Part shown: positions 299 to 38,411 of the stretch, piece by piece
Numbering within the stretch: the first letter of the stretch is position 1
Layout of the letters: each line of letters starts with the position of its first letter
Assembly (NCBI GenBank): GCA_035528895.1
Contig: DATKXS010000157.1
Coordinates: 1,843-65,842, forward strand
Length of the DNA stretch: 64,000 nucleotides
DNA from: Candidatus Desulfaltia sp.
GTDB lineage: Bacteria; Acidobacteriota; Aminicenantia; Aminicenantales; UBA8522
Reading direction: 5' to 3'
Notes under the pieces: generated by a model
What the model saw: only the letters and a program-made list of their open reading frames with translations
Database searches by the model: none
Told to the model about the DNA's origin: nothing
Program-made: the position numbers and the translations under genes

Positions 299-1270
299 AT
301 GGAAAGACGGAAATTTTTTCAGGCATTGTCGACTGGGGTGATCGGCGCGGCGGGAGTTTTGCGCGGCCGGACGTCCCGCCCGGGCATGCTGGGATCTATT
401 CCTGAGCAGCCGCTCCCCAGGCGTCCCCTCGGCCGCACCGGGGAGAAGCTCTCGATCATCGGCCTGGGCGGCCTCGTCCTGGCGGATGAATCATCGGATA
501 CAGCCGATTCCCTTGTCGGCGAGGCCATCGACCACGGGATCAACTATTTCGATGTCGCCCCGAGCTACGGGAACGCCGAAGACCGGATGGGCCCGGCGCT
601 CAAACCCTACCGAAAAAATGTCTTCCTCGCCTGCAAGACACTGAAGCGCGATAAATCCGGCGCCGCCGAGGAGCTTCATCAGTCCCTCCAGAAGCTGCAG
701 ACCGACCACTTCGACCTCTATCAGCTCCATGCGGTCTCCAAGACGGAAGACGTTGAGCAGGCCTTTGCCACGAACGGCGCCATGGAAACTTTTATCCAAG
801 CCAAAAAAGACGGGAAGGTCCGTTTCCTCGGGTTCTCGGCCCATTCGGCCGAGGCCGCGCTCCTGGCCATCCAGCAGTTCGATTTCGACACCGTCCTCTT
901 TCCGGTCAATTTCGTCTGTTTTCTCAAAGGCGGTTTCGGGCCCCAGGTCGTTGCCGCCGCGAAAGAAAAAAAGATGGGCATCCTGGCGCTCAAGGCCCTG
1001 GCCCGCCAGCCCTGGCCCGATGACAAACAGCGCCGGGATTGGCCGAAGTGCTGGTACCAGCCGATCCTCGACCGGGAAGAAGCCGGTCTATCGCTTCGTT
1101 TCACCCTCTCGCAGCCCGTGACCGCGGCCGTCCCACCCGGAGACAAGCGTCTTTTCAGAAAAGCCCTCGAACTGGCCCCCGGATTCAGTCCATTGCGAGC
1201 CGAGGAGGAGGCGAGGGTGAGACAGATGGCTGCCGGCTTAAACCCGTTGTTCAGTGCCCAGTCAGGGTGA
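299..1270 (+). CDS. aldo/keto reductase family oxidoreductase with twin-arginine (Tat) signal peptide
   Basis: AKR motifs (GxxYFDxAxxYG, LxACKT) seen in translation. N-terminus MERRKFFQALSTGVIGAAG matches an RRxF Tat motif. ATG at 299 is preceded by GGAG. Confidence 0.8.
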   Translation: MERRKFFQALSTGVIGAAGVLRGRTSRPGMLGSIPEQPLPRRPLGRTGEKLSIIGLGGLVLADESSDTADSLVGEAIDHGINYFDVAPSYGNAEDRMGPALKPYRKNVFLACKTLKRDKSGAAEELHQSLQKLQTDHFDLYQLHAVSKTEDVEQAFATNGAMETFIQAKKDGKVRFLGFSAHSAEAALLAIQQFDFDTVLFPVNFVCFLKGGFGPQVVAAAKEKKMGILALKALARQPWPDDKQRRDWPKCWYQPILDREEAGLSLRFTLSQPVTAAVPPGDKRLFRKALELAPGFSPLRAEEEARVRQMAAGLNPLFSAQSG

Positions 1271-4291: not shown

Positions 4292-5707
<1,416 letters not shown>

Positions 5708-9990: not shown

Positions 9991-10464
9991 TTATCGGACC
10001 ATGATCTCTCCGCCAATTTCAGGCAGGGGCTTCTTGTTATTGGGGAAAACGAGAAGGCGGTAGGTGAGCTTGGCCCCGGGCTCGATCTTCGGGGGAGGGG
10101 AGGCAGAAGGGACGGTTTGCAGCAGCAGTCTTTCCGTTTTGCCGGGTTTTATCTCGCCGTAATCCCGGTCGATGCGGGCGATCTCTGCAGCGTCGAGCTC
10201 GATGGTCAGCCGGAAGTGTGTCTTGGCGATCGGCAATCGTCCGGAATTCTCGTACTCGACGAGAAATGCCGGCGGAAACTGCGGAACGGTCTTGACAACA
10301 GCGGCGCGGGCGCCCCTCAGGATCTCCTTGTCGATGCTCTTCCCGTGCCTCCAGTCGAGATAGATGCTTATCATCTGGGCGAGGATGACGAGGGAAGCGA
10401 CCGCGAGGAAAGTGACCTCAACGACTCTCTTGAGCTTGGCCGTCCCTTTTCGTTCTTCAAACAA
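9991..10464 (-). CDS. hypothetical membrane-anchored protein (single N-terminal TM)
   Basis: ORF with the hydrophobic segment VVEVTFLAVASLVILAQMISIYL. No recognisable domain. Confidence 0.4.
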   Translation of the reverse strand: MFEERKGTAKLKRVVEVTFLAVASLVILAQMISIYLDWRHGKSIDKEILRGARAAVVKTVPQFPPAFLVEYENSGRLPIAKTHFRLTIELDAAEIARIDRDYGEIKPGKTERLLLQTVPSASPPPKIEPGAKLTYRLLVFPNNKKPLPEIGGEIMVR

Positions 10465-10640
10465 ATGATCAGCCCTGTTTATTCGCCCTATACTATTCCC
10501 CTCAACGCCCTTTTGTAAAGATTTGAAGCAATCCCAGTAAAGGGAATACGAACTGGGTTCAGCCTTCTGAGAGTATTTTCACGGCGAAGCGTCCATAGAT
10601 ATGTTTGCAGACCACGAGCAGAACCATGCTAATAAATGGC

Positions 10641-10669
10641 TTGACAGAATAATCTTTACTTATTATAAT
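10641..10669 (+). promoter_or_regulatory. sigma70-like promoter of vapBC (TTGACA-17-TATAAT)
   Basis: Perfect consensus hexamers with 17-nt spacing sit in an AT-rich stretch 37 nt upstream of the vapB start. Confidence 0.6.
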
Positions 10670-10705
10670 ATATAAAGAAAATTATAAAAGGTAAAGGAAA
10701 AGCCA

Positions 10706-10945
10706 ATGACGGTTGCTACTGTCTCATCAAAAAGCCAAATTACTCTTCCCGCAGCGGCCTGCCGGACTGTCGGCATCAAGCCTCGCGACCGAGTCCTGAT
10801 CGAAGTCAAAGAAGGGGAGATCGTAGTTCGGCCGGCCCCGGATATCATGAGTTTCGAAGGTTTCCTGGGCAAAGCTCTTCCCCGTGAAAAGGAGAAGGAG
10901 GCTATGGCCGGGTTCATCATGGAAGAGCGAAAAAAGCACGAATGA
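10706..10945 (+). CDS. vapB: AbrB/MazE/SpoVT-type antitoxin VapB
   Basis: N-terminus MTVATVSSKSQITLPAAACRTVGIKPRDRVLIEV fits the swapped-hairpin AbrB-like fold. Its stop overlaps the PIN gene start (ATGA). Confidence 0.85.
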   Translation: MTVATVSSKSQITLPAAACRTVGIKPRDRVLIEVKEGEIVVRPAPDIMSFEGFLGKALPREKEKEAMAGFIMEERKKHE

Positions 10946-11355
10946 GCACCTGGTTTGTCGACGCCAATGTTTTTCTCCGGTTTTTCACCGTCGATGACCA
11001 GGATCAGCATGGACGGGCCGCCCTCCTCATCTCCAGAGCATCTAAGGGCGAGATCCGGCTCGTTTGTGGTCCCCCGGTGCTCTTTGAGCTTTCCTGGACG
11101 CTGCGGGCAGCTTATAAAGTCTCCAGAGAAAAAGTCTTGGAAGTTCTCAGCGCCATTTATTCGATGTCCGGTCTTGTCATGACCGATGCCCATCTCGTGG
11201 AGACGGCCTTGACCCTTGCTGACACCGCCGGCGTAGAGTTCCCCGATGCCTATATCGCCGCCGGCGCCTTAGCCGCAGAGTGCGACGGCGTTGCCACCTT
11301 CAATCGAAAAGATTTTGCCCGGATGAAGATCAAGCTGGCCGATTTTGACGATTAA
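10942..11355 (+). CDS. vapC: PIN-domain ribonuclease toxin VapC
   Basis: A conserved PIN acidic residue sits near the N-terminus (FVDANVF). The ~137 aa size and translational coupling to the upstream antitoxin also fit. Confidence 0.85.
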   Translation: MSTWFVDANVFLRFFTVDDQDQHGRAALLISRASKGEIRLVCGPPVLFELSWTLRAAYKVSREKVLEVLSAIYSMSGLVMTDAHLVETALTLADTAGVEFPDAYIAAGALAAECDGVATFNRKDFARMKIKLADFDD

Positions 11356-11487
11356 ACGCGTCGGCCGTCGCGGACGACAACCTTGCCGTTCTTGATGACG
11401 TGGCGGATGGGGTTCCAGCCAAGCTGCAGGACAAAGAGCGTCGAGCCGACTATCGAGCTTCCGGGGTGGAAATCCGAATAGAAAATA
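11352..11487 (-). pseudogene. decayed 3'-terminal fragment of a hutI-like amidohydrolase gene (duplicate of the 13961-14275 region with a ~165-nt internal deletion)
   Basis: Translation ...[36 protein letters not shown] parallels the C-terminus of the 13961..15241 protein. The nucleotide segments 11364-11425 and 11426-11487 are ~85% identical to 13983-14046 and 14213-14275. Confidence 0.7.
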
Positions 11488-11584
11488 CCGAGACCGAATG
11501 GTTTGATTCTCCTCCCTTGCGCGAAGATTTGTTTTTCCTTAATATGTATCAGGCCGATAGAATTGTGCGATGAAGGAGAAGAAA

Positions 11585-12664
11585 ATGAAAAAACGAAACT
11601 GGCTGATGCTGCTGTCGGTCTGTCTGCTGCTGGCCGGTTGGAGCGTGATTCAGGCTTCGGCCGATGAAAAAACACCGCCGCCGCTCACGCAGGTCAACGG
11701 ACAGCAGCTGGGTCCGGAACGGCTTGGCCCCCTGCCGCCCGTGGTGGCTCCGCCCAATAACCCGCCATCGAGCGCCAAAATTCATCTGGGTAAGTTGCTC
11801 TATTTTGATACCCGTCTCTCCGCCGACAACACGGTCAGTTGTGCCACCTGCCATGACCCGGCCATGGGCTGGTCCGATGCCGGCCCCACCAGCAAGGGTA
11901 TCCGCGGCCAGATGGGTGGCCGACGGTCCCCTCCGGTTTCCAATGCCGCCTACAATCCGCTGCAATTCTGGGATGGCCGAGCACCCTCGCTCGAGGAACA
12001 AGCCAAGGGCCCGATCCAGAATCCGATCGAGATGGGGAACACGCATGAGGCGATGATCCGCACCGTCGACCAAATCCCCGGCTATGTCGAGGAATTCAAG
12101 AGAGTTTATGGCGAAGGGCCCATGACTGTCCAGCAGGTGGCGGATGCCATCGCCGCCTTCGAGCGTACGGTTGTCACTACGGACTCACGGTTCGACCGCT
12201 ATGCGCGCGGCGAGCACGATGCCCTGACCAAGCTGGAGAAACAGGGGCTGGAGATCTTCAACGGCAAAGGACACTGCACGGCCTGCCACTGGGGCCCGAA
12301 CTTCAGCGACGGCCGTTTCCATAACCTTGGTGTGCCGCCAACGGATCCCAAGAATCCTGATTTAGGGCGCTATGTCGTGACGAACAACCCGCGCGACATG
12401 GGCGCCTTCAAGACGCCTACTGTCCGCGACGCGGCTCTGCGCCCTCCCTACTTACATGACGGCTCAGAAAAAACCCTGGAATCGCTGCTTGAATTCTATA
12501 ACCGCGGCGGCAGCAAGGATCCCAACCTCGATCCGCTGATGGTGCCTCTGGGCCTGAGCAAGCTGGAGAAAAAGGCCCTGGTAGCTTTCATCCAGGCCTT
12601 GAACAGCCTCAACCCGGAAGTCGCTGCTGTCAATCCGATTCTGCCGGACGAACTGCCGAAGTGA
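11585..12664 (+). CDS. ccpA: di-heme cytochrome c peroxidase (CcpA/MauG family), periplasmic
   Basis: Signal peptide, two CxxCH motifs (CATCHDP, CTACHWGPNF) about 145 aa apart and the W/FDGRAPSLEEQA motif. AGGAG RBS before the ATG at 11585. Confidence 0.85.
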   Translation: MKKRNWLMLLSVCLLLAGWSVIQASADEKTPPPLTQVNGQQLGPERLGPLPPVVAPPNNPPSSAKIHLGKLLYFDTRLSADNTVSCATCHDPAMGWSDAGPTSKGIRGQMGGRRSPPVSNAAYNPLQFWDGRAPSLEEQAKGPIQNPIEMGNTHEAMIRTVDQIPGYVEEFKRVYGEGPMTVQQVADAIAAFERTVVTTDSRFDRYARGEHDALTKLEKQGLEIFNGKGHCTACHWGPNFSDGRFHNLGVPPTDPKNPDLGRYVVTNNPRDMGAFKTPTVRDAALRPPYLHDGSEKTLESLLEFYNRGGSKDPNLDPLMVPLGLSKLEKKALVAFIQALNSLNPEVAAVNPILPDELPK

Positions 12665-12674
12665 GGAGGAGACT

Positions 12675-13934
12675 ATGAAAAAAACGTTAACTCTCCTTTT
12701 AATCGGCGCTGCAGCGCTTCTTTTCTTCGCTCAGACCCTGTCCGCCATTCCGGCCTTTGCGCGAAAGTACGGCTTCAACTGCAACATGTGCCATGTGGCC
12801 TTTCCCAAATTGAATGATTTCGGCCAGCGTTTCCGCGACAACGGTTACCAGATCCCCGGCCAGGCCGGCCTGGAGAAGACAATCTTCGAGACGGCCATCC
12901 CCTTCGCTGTCCGGACCACGACTGGCTATTCCTCGTACAATAACGGCCTTGATACAGCCGCCGGATTTCACCTCTTCGGACTGGACCTGCTCGCGGCCGG
13001 AGTTCTCCACAAGAACATTTCGTTCCTTTTTGTTTACACGCCGCGCATCGACGAGCCGGCGGCCGATTTTTTAGGCGCCGGCAACGGCAACAACCCCGCA
13101 CAATTAGCGGCCATCGAGTCGGCCAACCTGGTCTTCAGCAACCTAATCCAGGATAAGCTCAACCTGCGCGTCGGCCGCTTCGAGCCGGGCTATCAGCTGC
13201 TCAGTTCCAAGCGCCTTTACTATCTCCTCCAGTCTTACGAAATATACGGCTTCGTCCCCGGCGGGAATGGGTTCGATTTTTCCGCCAATCACATCGGAAT
13301 CGAAGCCACCGGTCGCTTCAGGCACGGTTTCAAGTACGGGCTGGGATTTATCAATGGCAACGCCGGCGACCCCGACAACAACAGGTTCAAGGACCTCTAT
13401 TTTGTCCTGTCCAAGACCCTTGGACCCGGCGAAGGCCAGTCGGCCGGGCAGCGCTTCGGCCTCTTCGGCTATCTCGGTTGGCAGCCGACCGTTTACACGG
13501 GCTCCAGCGTCTCTCCCTTGGGCGATGTCAGCGGCAAAGAGAACAAGAGCTTCTACCGCTGGGGCGGCGACCTCAGCCTCAACTGGAAGACCTTTAACCT
13601 GCAGACTGTGGCTTTCCGCGGGGTGGACAATAAGGCCTTCAATGACCTCAACCCGGCCAAGGACTATTCGTTTTGGGGTGGAGCCGTCCAGCTCGATTGG
13701 GCCGGCCTGGCCAACAACCGCCTCGTGGCGTCGCTGATGTACAACTGGGTGCGTCCGCCCGGCGAGGAGAGCATTAGCCGATTGAGCTGCTACTCGGGGC
13801 TTGTGCGCTACTATCTAGGCAGCTGGACGGCGGTGAATGTCGCCCTGCACGCCGAATATACCCATCGTGTGGTCGGCGCCGACAATCCGTTCAAGGACGA
13901 TCTGTTTACCCTGCTGCTCGATTTTGATTTTTAG
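12675..13934 (+). CDS. outer-membrane fused monoheme cytochrome-porin candidate (Cyc2-like)
   Basis: AGGAGG RBS. Signal peptide MKKTLTLLLIGAAALLFFAQTLSA, then PAFARKYGFNCNMCH with a single CxxCH ~13 aa into the mature protein. A ~380 aa Gly/Tyr/aromatic-rich region with alternating hydrophobic residues follows, and the C-terminus ends in F (LLLDFDF), as in OM beta-barrels. Confidence 0.55.
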   Translation: MKKTLTLLLIGAAALLFFAQTLSAIPAFARKYGFNCNMCHVAFPKLNDFGQRFRDNGYQIPGQAGLEKTIFETAIPFAVRTTTGYSSYNNGLDTAAGFHLFGLDLLAAGVLHKNISFLFVYTPRIDEPAADFLGAGNGNNPAQLAAIESANLVFSNLIQDKLNLRVGRFEPGYQLLSSKRLYYLLQSYEIYGFVPGGNGFDFSANHIGIEATGRFRHGFKYGLGFINGNAGDPDNNRFKDLYFVLSKTLGPGEGQSAGQRFGLFGYLGWQPTVYTGSSVSPLGDVSGKENKSFYRWGGDLSLNWKTFNLQTVAFRGVDNKAFNDLNPAKDYSFWGGAVQLDWAGLANNRLVASLMYNWVRPPGEESISRLSCYSGLVRYYLGSWTAVNVALHAEYTHRVVGADNPFKDDLFTLLLDFDF

Positions 13935-13960
13935 GCCCGGCTGGACCATTGGCGAGAGTG

Positions 13961-15241
13961 TTAAAAAGAAGAATTTCGTTTTCCGTCGCGGACGACGACC
14001 CGGCCGTTCTTGATGACGTGACGGATGGGGTTCCAGCCGAGCTCGTAGACTAGAGACGCATATTCGGGAACGTCGCAGAGCAGCATGTCCATCTTTTTTC
14101 CGACCTCGAGGCTGCCGATGCTGTCGTGTCGGCGCAGCGCAAAGGCCGCGTTGGCCGTTACCGCGTTGAGCGCTTCCTCGATGCTCATCTTCAAGAGATA
14201 CACGCCGAGCTGCATCACAAAGAGCATCGAGCCGATCATCGAGCTCCCGGGGTTGAAATCCGAGGCTAGGTTAAGGGCGGCGCCGGCATCGATGAGCCTT
14301 CGTGCCGGCGCCTTTTTTTCGAGCATCAGGAAAAAGGACACAGACGGCAGGAGGGTGGCCGCTGTTTCGCTCCGGGAAAGGACCCGGATTCCCTTTTCCG
14401 TGATGCTGATCAGATGGTCGGCCGAGGCTGCCCCGACCTCGGCCGCCAACTCTGCCCCTCCCAGGGCAGAGAATTCGTCGGCGTGGATCCTGATCTTGAA
14501 CCCGGCCCGCTTGGCCGCTTCGGCCAGCCGCCTGGTTTCTTCCACCGAAAACACACCCTTTTCGCAGAAGACATCGAAGAACTCGGCCAGATCCCGGCGG
14601 CGCACTTCAGGCATGATCTTCTTGATGAGGAGGTCGATGTAAGCGCTCTTCCGGGTCTTGTACTCCTTCGGGATATCGTGAGCGCCCATGAAAGTGGAAA
14701 CGATGTCCACCGGATGATGTCGAGCGGCCTCTTTCAGCACCTCGAGCTGCTTGATCTCGTCCTTGAGGTTCAAACCGTATCCGCTCTTGGCCTCGACCGT
14801 CGTCGCGCCGTGCAGCATCATCCGGTCGAGCCGCGCCAGGCACAGTGAGAGGAGGTCTTTTTTGGAAGCCCGGCGCGTCGCTGCGACCGTCGTTTGGATC
14901 CCCATCCCTTTCTTTGCCAGTTGCTGGTAGGTATATCCCCGCAGCCGCAGCCGGAATTCCTCGACCCGGTTCCCGGCGAAGGGGAGATGGGTATGGGAAT
15001 CGACGAACCCGGGCAGTCCGACCATCCCGGTCCCATCTAAGTGCACCGCCGAGCGTTCCGGTCGGACCTTGGCCCTGAAGTCCCTTTCCTTTCCGATGAA
15101 GACGATCCGGCCCCTGGAGGAGGCAATCCAGGCTTTATCCACCGGCCCGGCATCCTGCAGGGCGTTCTCCCTTTTCGGGATCGGTCCCCGGCAGGTGACG
15201 AGCCGGCGGCAGCCCTGGACGACGAGGTCAGCCGAGGTCAT
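13961..15241 (-). CDS. hutI: imidazolonepropionase-like amidohydrolase (HutI family)
   Basis: The [13 protein letters not shown] metal-binding motif and the overall pattern match HutI. Its start overlaps the ftsZ stop by 14 nt. Confidence 0.75.
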
Positions 15242-16442
15242 TCGGGTGTTTTCTCAGCCCGGAATGTTTGCTCCGCCGGATGAAGGTCGGAGTCTCATAA
15301 GGCTCATACTGCTTCTCCCAGGCCGGCGGCTCCCAGAGAGGCGCTTTCCCGCCCTTCGGTTCGAACAGGTAGGTCGGCGTATCCGAATCAACCTGGAAAG
15401 GGGGAGGGGTTTGCCGCAACGGCCGGGGCAACTCTGCTTCCACCGCGCCCTCTTTCTCTTTGACCGTCTCGAACCCGGTGGCGATGACCGTCACCTTGAC
15501 CATCTCCTTCATCGAATTGTCGATGACCGTGCCGAAGATAATGTTGGCCTCGGGATGGGCCATCCGATGGATGAGCTGCGACGACTTGGAGACTTCGTGG
15601 AGGGTCAAATCCTTCCCGCCCGTGATGTTGATGAGCACACCCTTGGCCCCCTCGATCGAAGTGTCGACGAGCAGCGGGCTGGAGATGGCTTTCTGGGCCG
15701 CGTCCATGGCCCGGTTCTCGCCCGAAGCGATCCCGGTCCCCATGAAGGCCATGCCCATCCCCTTCATGATGGACTTGACGTCGGCGAAGTCGAGGTTGAT
15801 GAGCCCCGGCTTGGTGATGAGGTCGCTGATACCCTGGACCGCCTGCCTCAAGATATCGTCGGCCAGCTTGAAGGCGTCCTGGATGGAGGTATCGAGGTTG
15901 ACGGTCTGGAGAAGCCTCTCGTTGGGGATGGCGATGACCGTGTCCACGGCGCCCTTCAGTTCTTTGAGCCCTTCCTCGGCCTGCTTGGCCCTGACTCGGC
16001 CTTCGAACTCGAAGGGCAGGGTGACGATGGCGATGGCCAGGATGTCCATCTCCGAAGCCAGGTTGGCCAGGATCGGTGTGGCGCCCGTTCCCGTTCCGCC
16101 GCCCAGGCCGGTCGTCAGGAAGACCATGTCGGCGCCCTGGATGAGCCCGATCAGTCTCTCGGTATCCTCGACGGCCGCCTGCTTTCCGGTCTCGGGCCGC
16201 CCGCCGGAGCCGAGTCCCTTGGTGATCTTGGCGCCGATCTGGAGCTTGGCCTTGGCCCGGTTGTTGTTCAGGGCTTGGACGTCGGTGTTCACGGCGATGA
16301 ACTCGACGCCTTCGATCCCCGCCTCGATCATCCGGTTGACGGCGTTGCCGCCGCCGCCGCCGATGCCGAGGACCCTGATCTTGGCACCCATGGTGTCATC
16401 GACCAGATGAAACTTCAGTTTGCTGCTTGACTCGTCGTTCAT
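15228..16442 (-). CDS. ftsZ: cell division protein FtsZ
   Basis: Tubulin signature [18 protein letters not shown] and the C-terminal peptide ETPTFIRR. Confidence 0.97.
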
Positions 16443-37046: not shown

Positions 37047-38186
37047 ATGTTGTACCATATGCCCACAGCCGTCATCTTTGGGGCGGGCACGTTCGCTGAA
37101 TTGCGGCGAGTTGTCCAGGATGAATTCCGTTCTTCCCGCCCATTTTTGGTCACCGATCGAGGTGTCGTTGAAGCCGGAATTGCCGAGAAGGTTCTGGCCC
37201 ATCTATCTCCGGTGGCCGTTTATGACGAGGTCGAGCCGAATCCCAGGCATGGCACCATTGACAGAGCGGGGGAGTTCGTCCGGACTCTCCGTCCCGACCT
37301 CATCGTCGGAGTCGGCGGCGGCAGCGCCCTGGATGCCGCCAAGGCGATCGCCCTGCTGGCGACGAATCCGGGCCGGATCGAGGAATATGAAGGTCGGGAG
37401 CGCTACAAGACCGCTCCTCTTCCCGTATTCGCGATTCCCACAACTTGTGGCACTGGAAGCGAGGTTACCTGGGTGGCCGTCATCACTCACACTGGGCGCC
37501 AGTTCAAGATGAGCATCAAGGGAACGCGGATGTATCCGGCGGCGGCGCTCGTCGACCCGGACCTGCTCATGACTTTGCCTTCTCATCTTATTGCCTCGAC
37601 GGGCCTGGATGCCCTCACCCATGCCGTCGAAGCCTTCACTGTCAAGCCGGCCAATTTCATCTCCGATACTCTGGCCCTGGAATCGATCCGCCTGATCTTT
37701 CGCTTTCTCCCGCGGGCCTATCAAGATATCAAGGGCGATAGCGAGGCCAGGGAAGGGCAGATGAAGGGAAGCCTCCTGGCCGGGATGGCCTTCGGGAACA
37801 GTGATGTCGGCGCCGTCCACTGTTTGGCCGAATCCGTCGGGTCGCTCTACGACACGCCGCACGGGGTCGCCAATGCGATTTTTCTGCCTCCCGTCATGGA
37901 GTTCAATCTTCCGGCGGCGAGAGAGAAGTACGCGGCCATCGCCGCCGCCATCGGCCTCGAGGCCGCCGCCAAGGATGACGCCGCTCGCGCCCTCATCCAG
38001 AAAATCAAGGACCTGTCCCGTTCCCTCTCCATCCCCTCTTTTCGGGACTTGAGAATCCCGGGGGGCGATTTCGTCGCCATCGCCCGGAAGTCTTTCGAGA
38101 ACAATTCGAACTTCTCCAACCCCCGCGAAGCCAGCGCCGAGGATTATCTTCACATCTTGCGGCAGGTCCACCAGGCGGGCGCATAG
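37047..38186 (+). CDS. iron-containing (group III) alcohol dehydrogenase
   Basis: Fe-ADH motifs (GGGSALDAAKAIA; metal-binding HxxxH region, ALTHAVEA) and the glycine-rich NAD site. Confidence 0.85.
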   Translation: MLYHMPTAVIFGAGTFAELRRVVQDEFRSSRPFLVTDRGVVEAGIAEKVLAHLSPVAVYDEVEPNPRHGTIDRAGEFVRTLRPDLIVGVGGGSALDAAKAIALLATNPGRIEEYEGRERYKTAPLPVFAIPTTCGTGSEVTWVAVITHTGRQFKMSIKGTRMYPAAALVDPDLLMTLPSHLIASTGLDALTHAVEAFTVKPANFISDTLALESIRLIFRFLPRAYQDIKGDSEAREGQMKGSLLAGMAFGNSDVGAVHCLAESVGSLYDTPHGVANAIFLPPVMEFNLPAAREKYAAIAAAIGLEAAAKDDAARALIQKIKDLSRSLSIPSFRDLRIPGGDFVAIARKSFENNSNFSNPREASAEDYLHILRQVHQAGA

Positions 38187-38411
38187 AAATTTGGGGACAT
38201 GAACCGAATTTCTGAGTTCGGCATCGTGTCCCCAAATTTCCAATTTAAGCGACGAGCTGGCACTCCTAATTTCGGCAAGGCGAGGGGTAGTGGCATCGAA
38301 ACCGTGCCCGCTCACTCCTCATACGGGTTTTTCCTGCCACTACCCCTCACCTCATAAAAAAGACAAAGCAAGCATATTCTCTTAAGACAAGGCGAGCTAT
38401 ATATCCCGAGC

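What the first reader, a model, noticed from the sequence alone, without database searches (positions are those of the whole stretch)
11352..11487. Decayed duplicate of the hutI 3' end brackets the ccp/Cyc2-like cassette
The segments 11364-11425 and 11426-11487 are ~85% identical to 13983-14046 and 14213-14275, the last ~300 bp of hutI, with an internal ~165-bp deletion. They translate to ...[25 protein letters not shown] against ...[24 protein letters not shown] in the intact gene. So the 2.5-kb ccp plus cytochrome-porin module sits between two copies of the hutI terminus. This is the footprint expected if the cassette entered by recombination or site-specific integration at the hutI 3' end and regenerated the gene end.
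Basis: seen in the sequence. Interest (0 to 1): 0.55.

Follow-up and report, generated by a model that had tools for sequence, protein, structure and literature searches.

The report
Displaced hutI end beside inserted cassette
A 126-base decayed copy of the end of the hutI gene marks where a two-gene cytochrome module was recombined into the gene's last codons; it is a real, well-documented but ordinary insertion scar, not the footprint of an integrase.

Summary
Window 11365-11425 and 11418-11477 match hutI 13983-14043 (92%) and 14204-14263 (87%), with blastn E of 3e-20 and 6e-16. The 168-nt in-frame gap is bounded by an 8-nt repeat.

The fragment is the displaced ancestral 3' end of hutI. It keeps the tail ...RDGRRV* found in cassette-free relatives. 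Its stop codon overlaps the vapC stop exactly as intact hutI does in the empty-site relative L087. The working hutI diverges from all relatives right after CGCGACGG and carries a new tail, KRNSSF*.

The insert, 11478-13982, is a ccp plus Cyc2-like module with its own conserved upstream motif. The same module sits in unrelated contexts in other Aminicenantes.

Other lineages form a series:
- L174 has the full-length undeleted relic.
- L170 has a different 96-nt deletion.
- L166 has the 168-nt deletion plus a further 42-nt one.
- L171 and L173 have no relic.

No integrase, transposase or att-like site lies in or next to the insert, and the module carries no hutI mimic elsewhere.

Best reading: a recombinase-independent insertion-duplication, followed by spread through homologous recombination and then erosion of the relic. 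The primary mechanism is unresolved. This is a known kind of event and of modest interest.

The parts
11352..11477 (-). Relic (pseudogene) of the hutI 3' end. It corresponds to codons ~327-345 and 402-423 of the ancestral 423-aa gene, including the ancestral tail RDGRRV and a stop codon that overlaps the vapC stop.
   Evidence: The tail matches cassette-free relatives. The same junction with vapC is seen for intact hutI in L087. No Pfam hit.
11418..11425 (-). Joint of the 168-nt in-frame deletion inside the relic: one surviving copy of the 8-nt repeat GCCGAGCT (here GCCAAGCT).
   Evidence: The joint is shared with L166. The deletion is absent from L174 and L170.
11478..11497 (.). 20-nt filler of unknown origin at junction J2, between the cassette end and the relic. 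It is shared by window, L166, L170 and L174.
   Evidence: No significant similarity to the local REP element.
11498..11584 (+). Upstream region of the cassette. It holds a conserved promoter-like motif: TTGCGC (11517-11522), a 17-nt spacer, then TAATAT (11540-11545), followed by an RBS.
   Evidence: The motif is conserved upstream of ccp in unrelated contexts L081 and L082. It falls below the sigma-70 scan threshold.
11585..12664 (+). ccp: a di-haem cytochrome c peroxidase / MauG-family gene. The start is set by homology; the longest ORF starts at 11570.
   Evidence: PF03150, 201.6 bits. Below the NCBIfam MauG/MbnH cut-offs. 91% identical to the L081 ccp from residue 1.
12675..13934 (+). Cyc2-like gene. 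Features: signal peptide, a single CXXCH (C36, C39, H40), a predicted porin-like beta-barrel and a C-terminal Phe.
   Evidence: No Pfam or NCBIfam hit. The CXXCH is invariant in 29 homologues. The model has ~16 strands at mean pLDDT 53.5. The best PDB matches are all 16-strand porins.
13935..13982 (.). 3' flank of the cassette. Positions 13961-13982 supply the new last codons and stop of hutI (…G|KRNSSF*). Junction J1 lies between 13982 and 13983.
   Evidence: every relative diverges from the window immediately after CGCGACGG. J1 is shared with L086/L171, L166, L170, L173 and L174.
13983..14263 (-). The 281-nt segment of the working hutI that is duplicated in the relic. Positions 14044-14211 are the part later deleted from the relic.
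   Evidence: L174 carries the whole segment in its relic.
13961..15241 (-). Working hutI (426 aa, imidazolonepropionase). It is the last gene of the dcw cluster and overlaps ftsZ by 14 nt.
   Evidence: TIGR01224, 439 bits. ftsA-ftsZ-hutI synteny in 153 of 160 related loci. dN/dS about 0.2 against L086 and L166.
10706..11355 (+). vapB-vapC toxin-antitoxin pair. This is the native downstream neighbour to which the relic is still attached.
   Evidence: PF04014 and PF01850. hutI-vapC adjacency without the cassette in L087. Perfect sigma-70 promoter at 10641-10669.

Best explanation
The fragment is the original 3' end of hutI, pushed aside by an insertion.

The event (shown). A 2.5-kb DNA segment was joined into hutI 13 nt before its stop codon; this is junction J1. 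The segment holds a promoter-like motif, ccp and a Cyc2-like cytochrome-porin gene, and it was copied or transferred from elsewhere in an Aminicenantes genome. Its other end, plus 20 nt of filler, was joined 281 nt further upstream in hutI; this is junction J2. As a result the last ~294 nt of hutI became present twice.
- The copy attached to the gene body stayed functional and took a new 6-residue tail from the inserted DNA.
- The copy attached to the native downstream DNA (vapC) became a pseudogene.

The mechanism (inferred). No dedicated recombinase is involved. The topology is that of a Campbell-type single crossover, of a one-ended homologous plus illegitimate event, or of a template switch.

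The later history. The event happened once. Once the duplicate existed, the module had hutI homology on both sides. It could therefore move between diverged lineages by ordinary homologous recombination, or by circle excision and re-integration (inferred). Meanwhile the relic erodes through microhomology deletions (shown).
For: Shown:
1. The relic keeps the ancestral tail GACGGCCGACGCGTTTAA, and relatives have GACGGCCGCCGCGTCTGA. The working gene diverges from about 20 relatives exactly after GACGG.
2. The relic-vapC junction is the same as the hutI-vapC junction of the empty-site relative L087.
3. J1 is shared by six lineages. J2 with its filler is shared by four: window, L166, L170 and L174.
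4. L174 has the complete 98-codon relic ending in a native stop. It is followed by the REP element and beta-helix gene, colinear with cassette-free L002 over 1.9 kb.
5. The deletions differ between lineages: 168 nt in window and L166, 42 nt more in L166, and 96 nt in L170. The 168- and 42-nt deletions lie between 8-10-nt direct repeats.
6. The five hutI-adjacent cassettes compared form a clade with 100% bootstrap support and pairwise distances of 0.056-0.070. Copies in other contexts lie at 0.15-0.24.
7. No integrase or transposase gene is present, and the module carries no hutI mimic in L081 or L082.

Supporting the spread by homologous recombination:
- dS of the accessory block is about half that of the flanking core. 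Window against L166: ccp 0.21, cyc2 0.17, vapC 0.26, against ftsZ 0.54, tonB 0.46, ftsQ 0.69. Window against L086: cyc2 0.15, against ftsZ 0.55.
- The cassette is not more codon-biased than the core.
- Relics are attached to three different native downstream contexts: vapC, DUF3795 and REP/beta-helix.
- Decay shows a gradient. In L174, 9 of the 24 J2-proximal codons break columns that are invariant in native hutI, against 3 of the 74 distal codons (Fisher p=1e-4).
Against: - Two cassette-bearing lineages (L171=L086 and L173) have no relic. Their sequences diverge from the relic-bearing ones at the same nucleotide (window 11498). If these are independent losses this is a coincidence, and it could instead mean that the insert has a discrete end.
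- The cassette tree is a star and cannot order relic-bearing and relic-less forms.
- In the window the two hutI copies are no closer to each other (101/113) than the relic is to hutI of other lineages (L088 104, L087 and L090 103). An in-situ duplication therefore cannot be told apart from a donor/recipient origin.
- The primary joining mechanism is not demonstrated. J1 and J2 show no clear microhomology.
- Lower dS in the cassette could also arise if the core flanks had recombined with more distant lineages.
Confidence: 0.75

Rival explanations
1. Two-step origin. The module was first inserted cleanly between hutI and its downstream DNA, giving a relic-less state like L171 or L173 in which J1 already existed. 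Later, DNA from such a donor entered a genome with native hutI. The left end recombined homologously within hutI, and the right end was joined illegitimately at hutI codon ~327. That step created J2 and the duplication. This corresponds to homology-facilitated illegitimate recombination, or to a circularised donor fragment integrating by a single crossover.
For: - Relic-less lineages share J1 and the same cassette end.
- The relic is as diverged from the window's own hutI as from other lineages' hutI.
- Cassette dS is lower than core dS, so the module did move between lineages.
- The 20-nt filler is typical of illegitimate joints.
Against: - L173 shares with relic-bearing L170 a peculiar junction between the hutI tail and the DUF3795 gene that lacks a hutI stop codon. 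Such a junction is easier to tolerate on a pseudogene, so L173 looks derived from an L170-like state by loss of the relic.
- L171 groups weakly (64% bootstrap) with relic-bearing L170.
- The donor joint would have to lie exactly 20 nt past the cassette end.
Confidence: 0.17
2. Site-specific integration. A small integrative element carrying a copy of the hutI 3' end as attP was inserted by an integrase. The direct repeats would then be attL and attR.
For: - Direct repeats of a gene's 3' end flanking an insert are the classic island footprint.
- Insertions recur at the hutI end. L090 has a second 15-nt hutI-tail relic next to vapC.
- The cassette end sits at the same nucleotide in three arrangement types.
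Against: - No integrase, excisionase or transposase gene lies in or beside the insert in any of six lineages.
- The insert is filled by two cytochrome genes, with 26 nt of spacer at one end and 107 nt at the other.
- The sequences on either side of J1 and J2 share no common core.
- The module elsewhere (L081, L082) has no hutI-like flank.
- The repeat is 281 nt long, and the gene end was replaced rather than regenerated.
Confidence: 0.04
3. The fragment is retained because it has a function, for example as a small translated HutI C-terminal peptide or as a cis element for ccp or vapC.
For: - All three independent internal deletions are multiples of three (168, 96 and 42 nt), and no relic copy has a frameshift or internal stop.
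- The window and L166 relics are 94% identical, while flanking core genes are 75-88% identical.
Against: - Residues invariant in HutI are replaced in the relic (DFNPGSS to DFHPGSS, SML to STL).
- Two lineages lost the relic entirely.
- The 168- and 42-nt deletions lie between repeats that encode the same peptide motifs. Those repeats are in the same codon phase, so an in-frame outcome is expected.
- The high identity is shared by the whole accessory block.
- No Rfam hit. No promoter-like site for the minus strand. The ccp upstream motif lies inside the cassette.
Confidence: 0.03
4. Assembly chimera or chance similarity.
For: The sequence comes from a metagenome-assembled genome.
Against: - E=3e-20 and 6e-16 for the two matches.
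- The same structure appears in three other independent assemblies at 99.9% identity and in diverged lineages L166, L170 and L174.
- The longest exact repeat of 17 nt is shorter than the assembly k-mers.
Confidence: 0.01

Closest known systems
C-terminal displacement with orphaned 3' ends, as in Rhs loci and T6SS effector-immunity arrays. Described by Jackson et al. 2009 and by Kirchberger et al. 2017 (PMC5361080, read), who proposed homology-facilitated illegitimate recombination.
   Same: - Incoming DNA is anchored in the conserved part of a resident gene.
- The resident 3' end is pushed downstream and remains as an orphan still attached to its old neighbours.
- No integrase is involved.
- The resulting arrays then move between strains by ordinary homologous recombination.
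   Different: - Here the displaced piece overlaps the retained gene by 281 nt, so it is a true duplication rather than a replacement of a variable toxin end.
- The gene is a housekeeping amidohydrolase.
- The incoming DNA contributes only six new residues.
- The cargo is a respiratory or redox module, not a toxin-immunity pair.
Campbell-type insertion-duplication: single-crossover integration of a circular DNA that carries an internal segment of a gene (laboratory insertion-duplication mutagenesis; my own knowledge).
   Same: - The topology is identical. The target segment is present as a direct repeat on both sides of the insert.
- One copy is joined to the gene's 5' part and the other to its native downstream DNA.
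- The structure is unstable through recombination between the repeats unless one repeat decays.
   Different: - No circular intermediate has been observed.
- The homologous segment stops 13 nt before the stop codon, so the gene survives only because the insert happens to provide a short in-frame tail.
Homology-facilitated illegitimate recombination in natural transformation (de Vries & Wackernagel 2002; Prudhomme et al. 2002; cited through PMC5361080 and PMC3240628).
   Same: One homologous anchor, one illegitimate joint with a few nucleotides of filler or microhomology, and acquisition of DNA that has no homologue in the recipient.
   Different: Experimental events of this kind usually delete recipient DNA between the anchor and the joint. 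Here recipient DNA is duplicated, which needs a circular donor, a sister chromosome or a template switch.
Integrase-borne genomic islands at the 3' ends of tRNA or protein genes.
   Same: The insert lies at a gene's 3' end, and direct repeats of the gene end bracket it.
   Different: There is no integrase and no att core, the insert does not carry its own copy of the gene end, and the repeat is long and diverged. See the membership tests.

Membership tests
Integrase-mediated integrative element at a gene 3' end | A tyrosine or serine recombinase gene inside the element, next to one att site | tested here: not met
   All ORFs between and beside the repeats are ccp, Cyc2-like, vapBC, hutI and orf157. 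The precomputed Pfam lists for the same region in L166, L170, L171, L173 and L174 show no integrase or transposase.
Integrase-mediated integrative element at a gene 3' end | attL and attR share an identical core, and the element carries that core (attP) wherever it is found | tested here: not met
   The sequences across J1 (GACGG|AAAACGA) and J2 (TTTTCTAT|TCGGATTTC) have no common core. The module in L081 and L082 has no hutI-like flank by tblastn or blastn.
Integrase-mediated integrative element at a gene 3' end | The target gene's end is regenerated by the element | tested here: not met
   The native tail RRV* is replaced by KRNSSF*. The native tail survives only on the relic.
Recombinational insertion-duplication / C-terminal displacement (Campbell or HFIR type) | The displaced copy of the gene end is contiguous with the native downstream DNA, as seen in an empty-site relative | tested here: met
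   The window relic plus vapC matches L087 hutI plus vapC, with overlapping stops. The L174 relic plus REP and beta-helix gene is colinear with L002.
Recombinational insertion-duplication / C-terminal displacement (Campbell or HFIR type) | The target segment is duplicated as a direct repeat, with one illegitimate junction carrying filler or microhomology | tested here: met
   281-nt direct repeat. 20-nt filler at J2, shared by four lineages.
Recombinational insertion-duplication / C-terminal displacement (Campbell or HFIR type) | RecA-dependent, recombinase-free formation: a circular or linear donor intermediate | not testable with these tools
   This needs genetics, or PCR and long reads for circular or excised forms.
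Transposon / insertion sequence | A transposase gene, terminal inverted repeats and a short (2-14 bp) target-site duplication | tested here: not met
   No transposase gene. No significant inverted repeats at the ends. The duplication is 281 nt.
hutI (imidazolonepropionase, TIGR01224) | A full-length match above the equivalog cut-off | tested here: met
   The intact gene 13961-15241 scores 439 bits against a cut-off of 298. The window relic ORF has no Pfam hit. The L174 relic still hits Amidohydro_1/3.
Cyc2-type fused cytochrome-porin | N-terminal signal peptide, a single CXXCH and a length of at least 375 aa (criteria stated in the FeGenie paper PMC7005843) | tested here: met
   419 aa. C36/C39/H40 are invariant in 29 homologues. 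There is an N-terminal hydrophobic helix.
Cyc2-type fused cytochrome-porin | An outer-membrane beta-barrel following the haem motif | tested here: inconclusive
   The AlphaFold model has mean pLDDT 53.5 and about 16 strands over residues 78-418. The top Foldseek PDB hits are all 16-strand porins, with E from 1e-5 and TM 0.4-0.56.
Cyc2-type fused cytochrome-porin | A match to the curated Cyc2 HMMs, or demonstrated iron oxidation | not testable with these tools
   The FeGenie HMMs are not available here. There is no Pfam or NCBIfam family for this protein.
Bacterial di-haem cytochrome c peroxidase / MauG family (PF03150) | The CCP_MauG domain above the gathering score | tested here: met
   201.6 bits against a cut-off of 25.6. 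The score is below the equivalog cut-offs for MauG and MbnH, so the subfamily is undetermined.

The most novel reading that the evidence does not exclude
The relic is not only a scar. It is the working right-hand homology arm of a recombinase-free portable cassette.

The module is flanked on both sides by hutI sequence. It could therefore loop out as a circle through its direct repeats, or be taken up as linear DNA, and then enter the hutI of any related genome by plain homologous recombination. It would always land at the same codon, whatever lies downstream.

This would explain three findings:
- The cassette is half as diverged as the core.
- The relic is attached to three different native contexts.
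- Only the J2-proximal part of the relic is heavily decayed.
Probability: 0.3. Interest if true: 0.5.

Novelty: new member of a known kind. Interest (0 to 1): 0.3.

Why it matters
The locus gives a clean natural series for how a gene-end duplication is created by an insertion and then erased: a full-length relic, then independent microhomology deletions, then complete loss. The organisms are uncultured Aminicenantes.

It shows that a ccp plus Cyc2-like redox module can be relocated and shared between lineages 12-15% apart without any mobile-element machinery. That matters for reading the patchy distribution of Cyc2-type genes in metagenomes.

For annotation, two points follow:
- The 107-aa ORF here and the 85-aa 'amidohydrolase' ORF in L174 are pseudogene relics.
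- hutI in these lineages has a non-native C-terminus.

None of this overturns current understanding.

Tried and rejected
1. REP-element idea. A nested-hairpin repeat (…GGGGACATGAACCGAATTTCTGAAATCGGGATCGTGTCCCC…) sits right after hutI in most relatives. I tested whether the new hutI tail and the 20-nt filler are the two halves of a split REP.
   - The alignment score was reached or exceeded by 49 and 47 of 300 shuffles for J1, by 150 and 30 of 300 for the window J2, and by 119 and 151 of 300 for L174 and L170.
   - Only the L086/L171 flank was marginal (2/300 and 15/300).
   - The idea was dropped. An nhmmer version of the test failed to run.

2. Mosaic test of hutI. Sliding identity of the window hutI against 17 relatives shows no donor-like segment. 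All relatives are about equally distant.

3. Polarity of substitutions between the relic and the intact copy. With only 113 nt, the result is about 4 relic-private changes, about 4 intact-private changes and the rest polymorphic. This cannot separate an in-situ duplication from a donor/recipient origin.

4. Cassette phylogeny to order relic-bearing and relic-less forms. The tree is an unresolved star.

5. Search of the window for the module's other known context (aldo-keto reductase plus a 354-aa gene). That context was not found: the only aldo-keto reductase match (~31% identity, window 299-1003) is a distant paralogue and the 354-aa gene has none, so intragenomic copying could not be tested.

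6. Codon bias as the cause of low cassette dS. Rejected, because the ENC of ccp and cyc2 (42-44) is not lower than that of ftsZ and tonB (37-41).

7. Known RNA families in 10400-14400. None found.

Full report
OBSERVATION

The window carries two direct repeats. Positions 11365-11425 match 13983-14043 (61 nt, 92%), and 11418-11477 match 14204-14263 (60 nt, 87%). blastn gives E=2.7e-20 and 6e-16 for these, while the best unrelated hits in the 64-kb window have E>=0.078.

The two blocks overlap by 8 nt in the fragment. The intact gene has the 8-nt repeat GCCGAGCT at both edges of the 168 nt (56 codons) that the fragment lacks. The gene at 13961-15241(-) is hutI (TIGR01224, 439 bits). It is the last gene of the dcw cluster, directly after ftsA and ftsZ.

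Three other independent assemblies carry the same arrangement at about 99.9% identity, with one SNP inside the fragment. An assembly artefact is therefore excluded.

WHOSE GENOME

The window's Cyc2-like protein is identical to HUU38624.1 of a 'Candidatus Desulfaltia sp.' MAG. All relatives found through hutI are Aminicenantes (Acidobacteriota) MAGs.

WHAT THE FRAGMENT IS

I fetched 160 hutI loci, 80 from genomes and 80 from metagenomes.
- ftsZ lies directly upstream of hutI in 153 of them.
- Of the 100 loci with at least 3 kb downstream of hutI, only one has ccp/cyc2.
- Native hutI is 423 aa and ends ...RDGRRV* or a near variant.

In a nucleotide alignment, the window's working hutI departs from every relative immediately after CGCGACGG. 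It continues AAAACGAAATTCTTCTTTTTAA, which encodes KRNSSF*. The fragment instead continues GACGGCCGACGCGTTTAA, which is the ancestral tail.

The fragment's stop codon overlaps the vapC stop. In L087 an intact 423-aa hutI abuts vapC in exactly the same way, and the two regions align base for base. L005 and L108 are a second kind of empty site, with hutI followed directly by orf157.

So the fragment is the displaced native end of hutI, still attached to its native neighbour. It is a pseudogene: residues invariant in native HutI are changed (DFNPGSS to DFHPGSS, SML to STL).

THE INSERT

The insert spans window 11478-13982 (2505 nt). It contains:
- 20 nt of filler;
- an upstream region with the motif TTGCGC-17 nt-TAATAT;
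- ccp (PF03150, 201.6 bits);
- a 419-aa protein with no family assignment;
- 48 nt of 3' flank that now supplies the end of hutI.

The 419-aa protein has the architecture ascribed to Cyc2. It has a signal peptide and a single invariant CXXCH. The model shows about 16 predicted beta-strands (low confidence), and its best PDB matches are all 16-strand porins. The FeGenie paper lists Aminicenantes among taxa whose genomes carry homologues of cyc2 or sulfocyanin genes (PMC7005843). I could not run the Cyc2 HMMs.

The ccp-cyc2 pair, with the same upstream motif, is widespread in Aminicenantes (834 proteins with E<=0.001; the 120 listed are 66-95% identical to the query). It sits in unrelated contexts in L081 and L082, with no hutI-like sequence beside it. 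The module is therefore an ordinary Aminicenantes gene pair that was relocated to hutI in one small group of lineages.

A SERIES OF STATES IN OTHER LINEAGES

The members of the 90%-identity cluster of the Cyc2-like protein gave further hutI-adjacent cassettes. All share junction J1 and the new tail.
- L174 has the same J2 and filler, followed by a complete, undeleted 98-codon copy of the hutI end with its native stop. After it come the REP element and beta-helix gene, colinear with cassette-free L002 over 1.9 kb.
- L170 has the same J2, keeps the part that the window lost, lacks a different 96 nt, and is attached to a DUF3795 gene.
- L166/L167 are about 88% identical to the window in core genes. 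They have the window's 168-nt deletion plus a further 42-nt one.
- L171 (=L086) and L173 have the cassette but no relic.

The five cassettes compared (window, L166, L170, L171, L173) form a fully supported clade with star-like distances of 0.056-0.070. L081 lies at 0.15-0.16 and L082 at 0.23-0.24.

The duplicate therefore arose once as a contiguous copy of about 294 nt and has since been eroding independently. The 168- and 42-nt deletions lie between 8-10-nt direct repeats that encode the same peptide motifs. That also explains why they are in frame.

MECHANISM: WHAT IS SHOWN AND WHAT IS INFERRED

Shown. The structure is an insertion flanked by a 281-nt direct duplication of the target. One copy is joined to the gene body and the other to the native downstream DNA. 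There is no integrase or transposase gene in any of six lineages, no common core at the two junctions, and no carried att mimic.

Inferred. This topology is what a single crossover of a circular molecule carrying a hutI segment produces. A one-ended homologous plus illegitimate event would give it too, as would a replication template switch that re-enters the chromosome 281 nt behind the break. I cannot tell these apart.

EVIDENCE THAT THE MODULE LATER MOVED BETWEEN LINEAGES BY HOMOLOGOUS RECOMBINATION

- The accessory block is about half as diverged at synonymous sites as the flanking core. Window against L166: ccp 0.21, cyc2 0.17, vapC 0.26, vapB 0.30, against ftsZ 0.54, tonB 0.46, hutI 0.42, ftsQ 0.69. 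Window against L086: cyc2 0.15, ccp 0.27, against ftsZ 0.55, tonB 0.59.
- Codon bias does not explain this.
- Relics sharing the same J2 are fused to three different native downstream contexts.
- The full-length relic of L174 is heavily decayed only near J2. Nine of the first 24 codons violate columns invariant in native hutI, against 3 of the remaining 74 (p=1e-4). This is expected if the right-hand crossover falls inside the relic, so that its distal part is repeatedly renewed from a functional hutI.

WHAT DOES NOT FIT

- The relic-less lineages diverge from the relic-bearing ones at exactly the same nucleotide (window 11498). I have no good explanation for this. It keeps alive a two-step origin (relic-less first) and, faintly, a discrete-ended mobile unit.
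- L173 shares with L170 a stop-less junction between the hutI tail and DUF3795, which suggests that L173 lost its relic secondarily. The evidence is thin.
- Within the window the two copies are no more alike (101/113) than the relic is to hutI of other lineages.
- The idea that the junctions are halves of the local REP hairpin was tested and is not significant.

COMPARISON WITH WHAT IS KNOWN

The closest described phenomena are:
- laboratory-style Campbell insertion-duplication.

The locus fails the defining features of an integrase-borne island and of a transposon (see the membership tests).

VERDICT

- It is a new instance of a known kind of event, nicely documented by comparative data.
- Interest 0.3.

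Noticed in passing
window 13961-16442; loci L001-L165: hutI (imidazolonepropionase) is the terminal gene of the dcw cell-division cluster. It overlaps the end of ftsZ by ~14 nt. An ftsZ match ending next to or overlapping the start of hutI is seen in 153 of 160 Aminicenantes loci (in a few it is partial or split). This is an unusual and very stable partnership for a histidine-catabolism gene.
   Followed up: partly
window 38186-38240; L002 11270-11330, L088 1699-1755, L092 7359-7500 and others: A REP/MITE-like nested hairpin (AATTTTGGGGACATGAACCGAATTTCTGAAATCGGGATCGTGTCCCCAAAATT) recurs in these genomes and sits right after hutI in most close relatives. In L089, L092, L093, L095, L103 and L105 it has overwritten the last hutI codons, giving alternative C-termini (…RDGRISGT*, …RILGT*, …RIMRT*).
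   Followed up: partly
region between hutI and orf157/TonB receptor: window 9991-13960; L001 3676-9463; L002 11273-13965; L090 1405-5349: This interval is a variable island. Its content differs between close relatives: nothing (L005, L108), vapC only (L087), a type I restriction-modification system (L001), a beta-helix protein plus DUF3795 (L002), or radical-SAM-like genes plus beta-helix plus DUF3795 plus vapC (L090).
   Followed up: partly
L090 ~5335-5349: A second, independent hutI-tail relic. 15 nt of the hutI end (GGCCGCCGCGTTTAA) remain fused to the vapC stop, although the intact hutI lies 4 kb away behind other inserted genes.
   Followed up: no
L111 8001-9263 and 10346-11563: Two hutI homologues (71% and 69% identical to the window protein) lie about 1 kb apart on one metagenome contig.
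   Followed up: no
window 11352-11675 (-); L174 1606-1863 (-); L170 4196-4840 (-): Open reading frames that run through the relic are likely to be called as genes. Two already are: an 85-aa 'amidohydrolase' in L174 and a 214-aa ORF in L170 that is antisense to DUF3795. They are annotation artefacts of the pseudogene.
   Followed up: yes
window relic; L166 5723-5810; L170 4590-4810: All three independent internal deletions of the relic are multiples of three (168, 42 and 96 nt), and no copy has a frameshift. For the 168- and 42-nt deletions this is explained by in-phase direct repeats. The 96-nt one has no clear microhomology.
   Followed up: partly
window 10641-10669 (+): A perfect sigma-70 consensus promoter (TTGACA-17 nt-TATAAT, 12/12) lies in an AT-rich stretch upstream of vapB.
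   Followed up: no
L087 ~5620-5700: In the empty-site relative, vapB and the first ~29 codons of vapC have been removed by a deletion that ends in the orf157 promoter region. So the toxin-antitoxin pair is itself decaying there.
   Followed up: no
L174 4370-5662 (-): In L174 the new hutI tail has lost its stop codon and reads four codons further (…RKRNSSFWRSR*, 430 aa). The CGCGACGG at J1 has changed to CGAGATAG.
   Followed up: no
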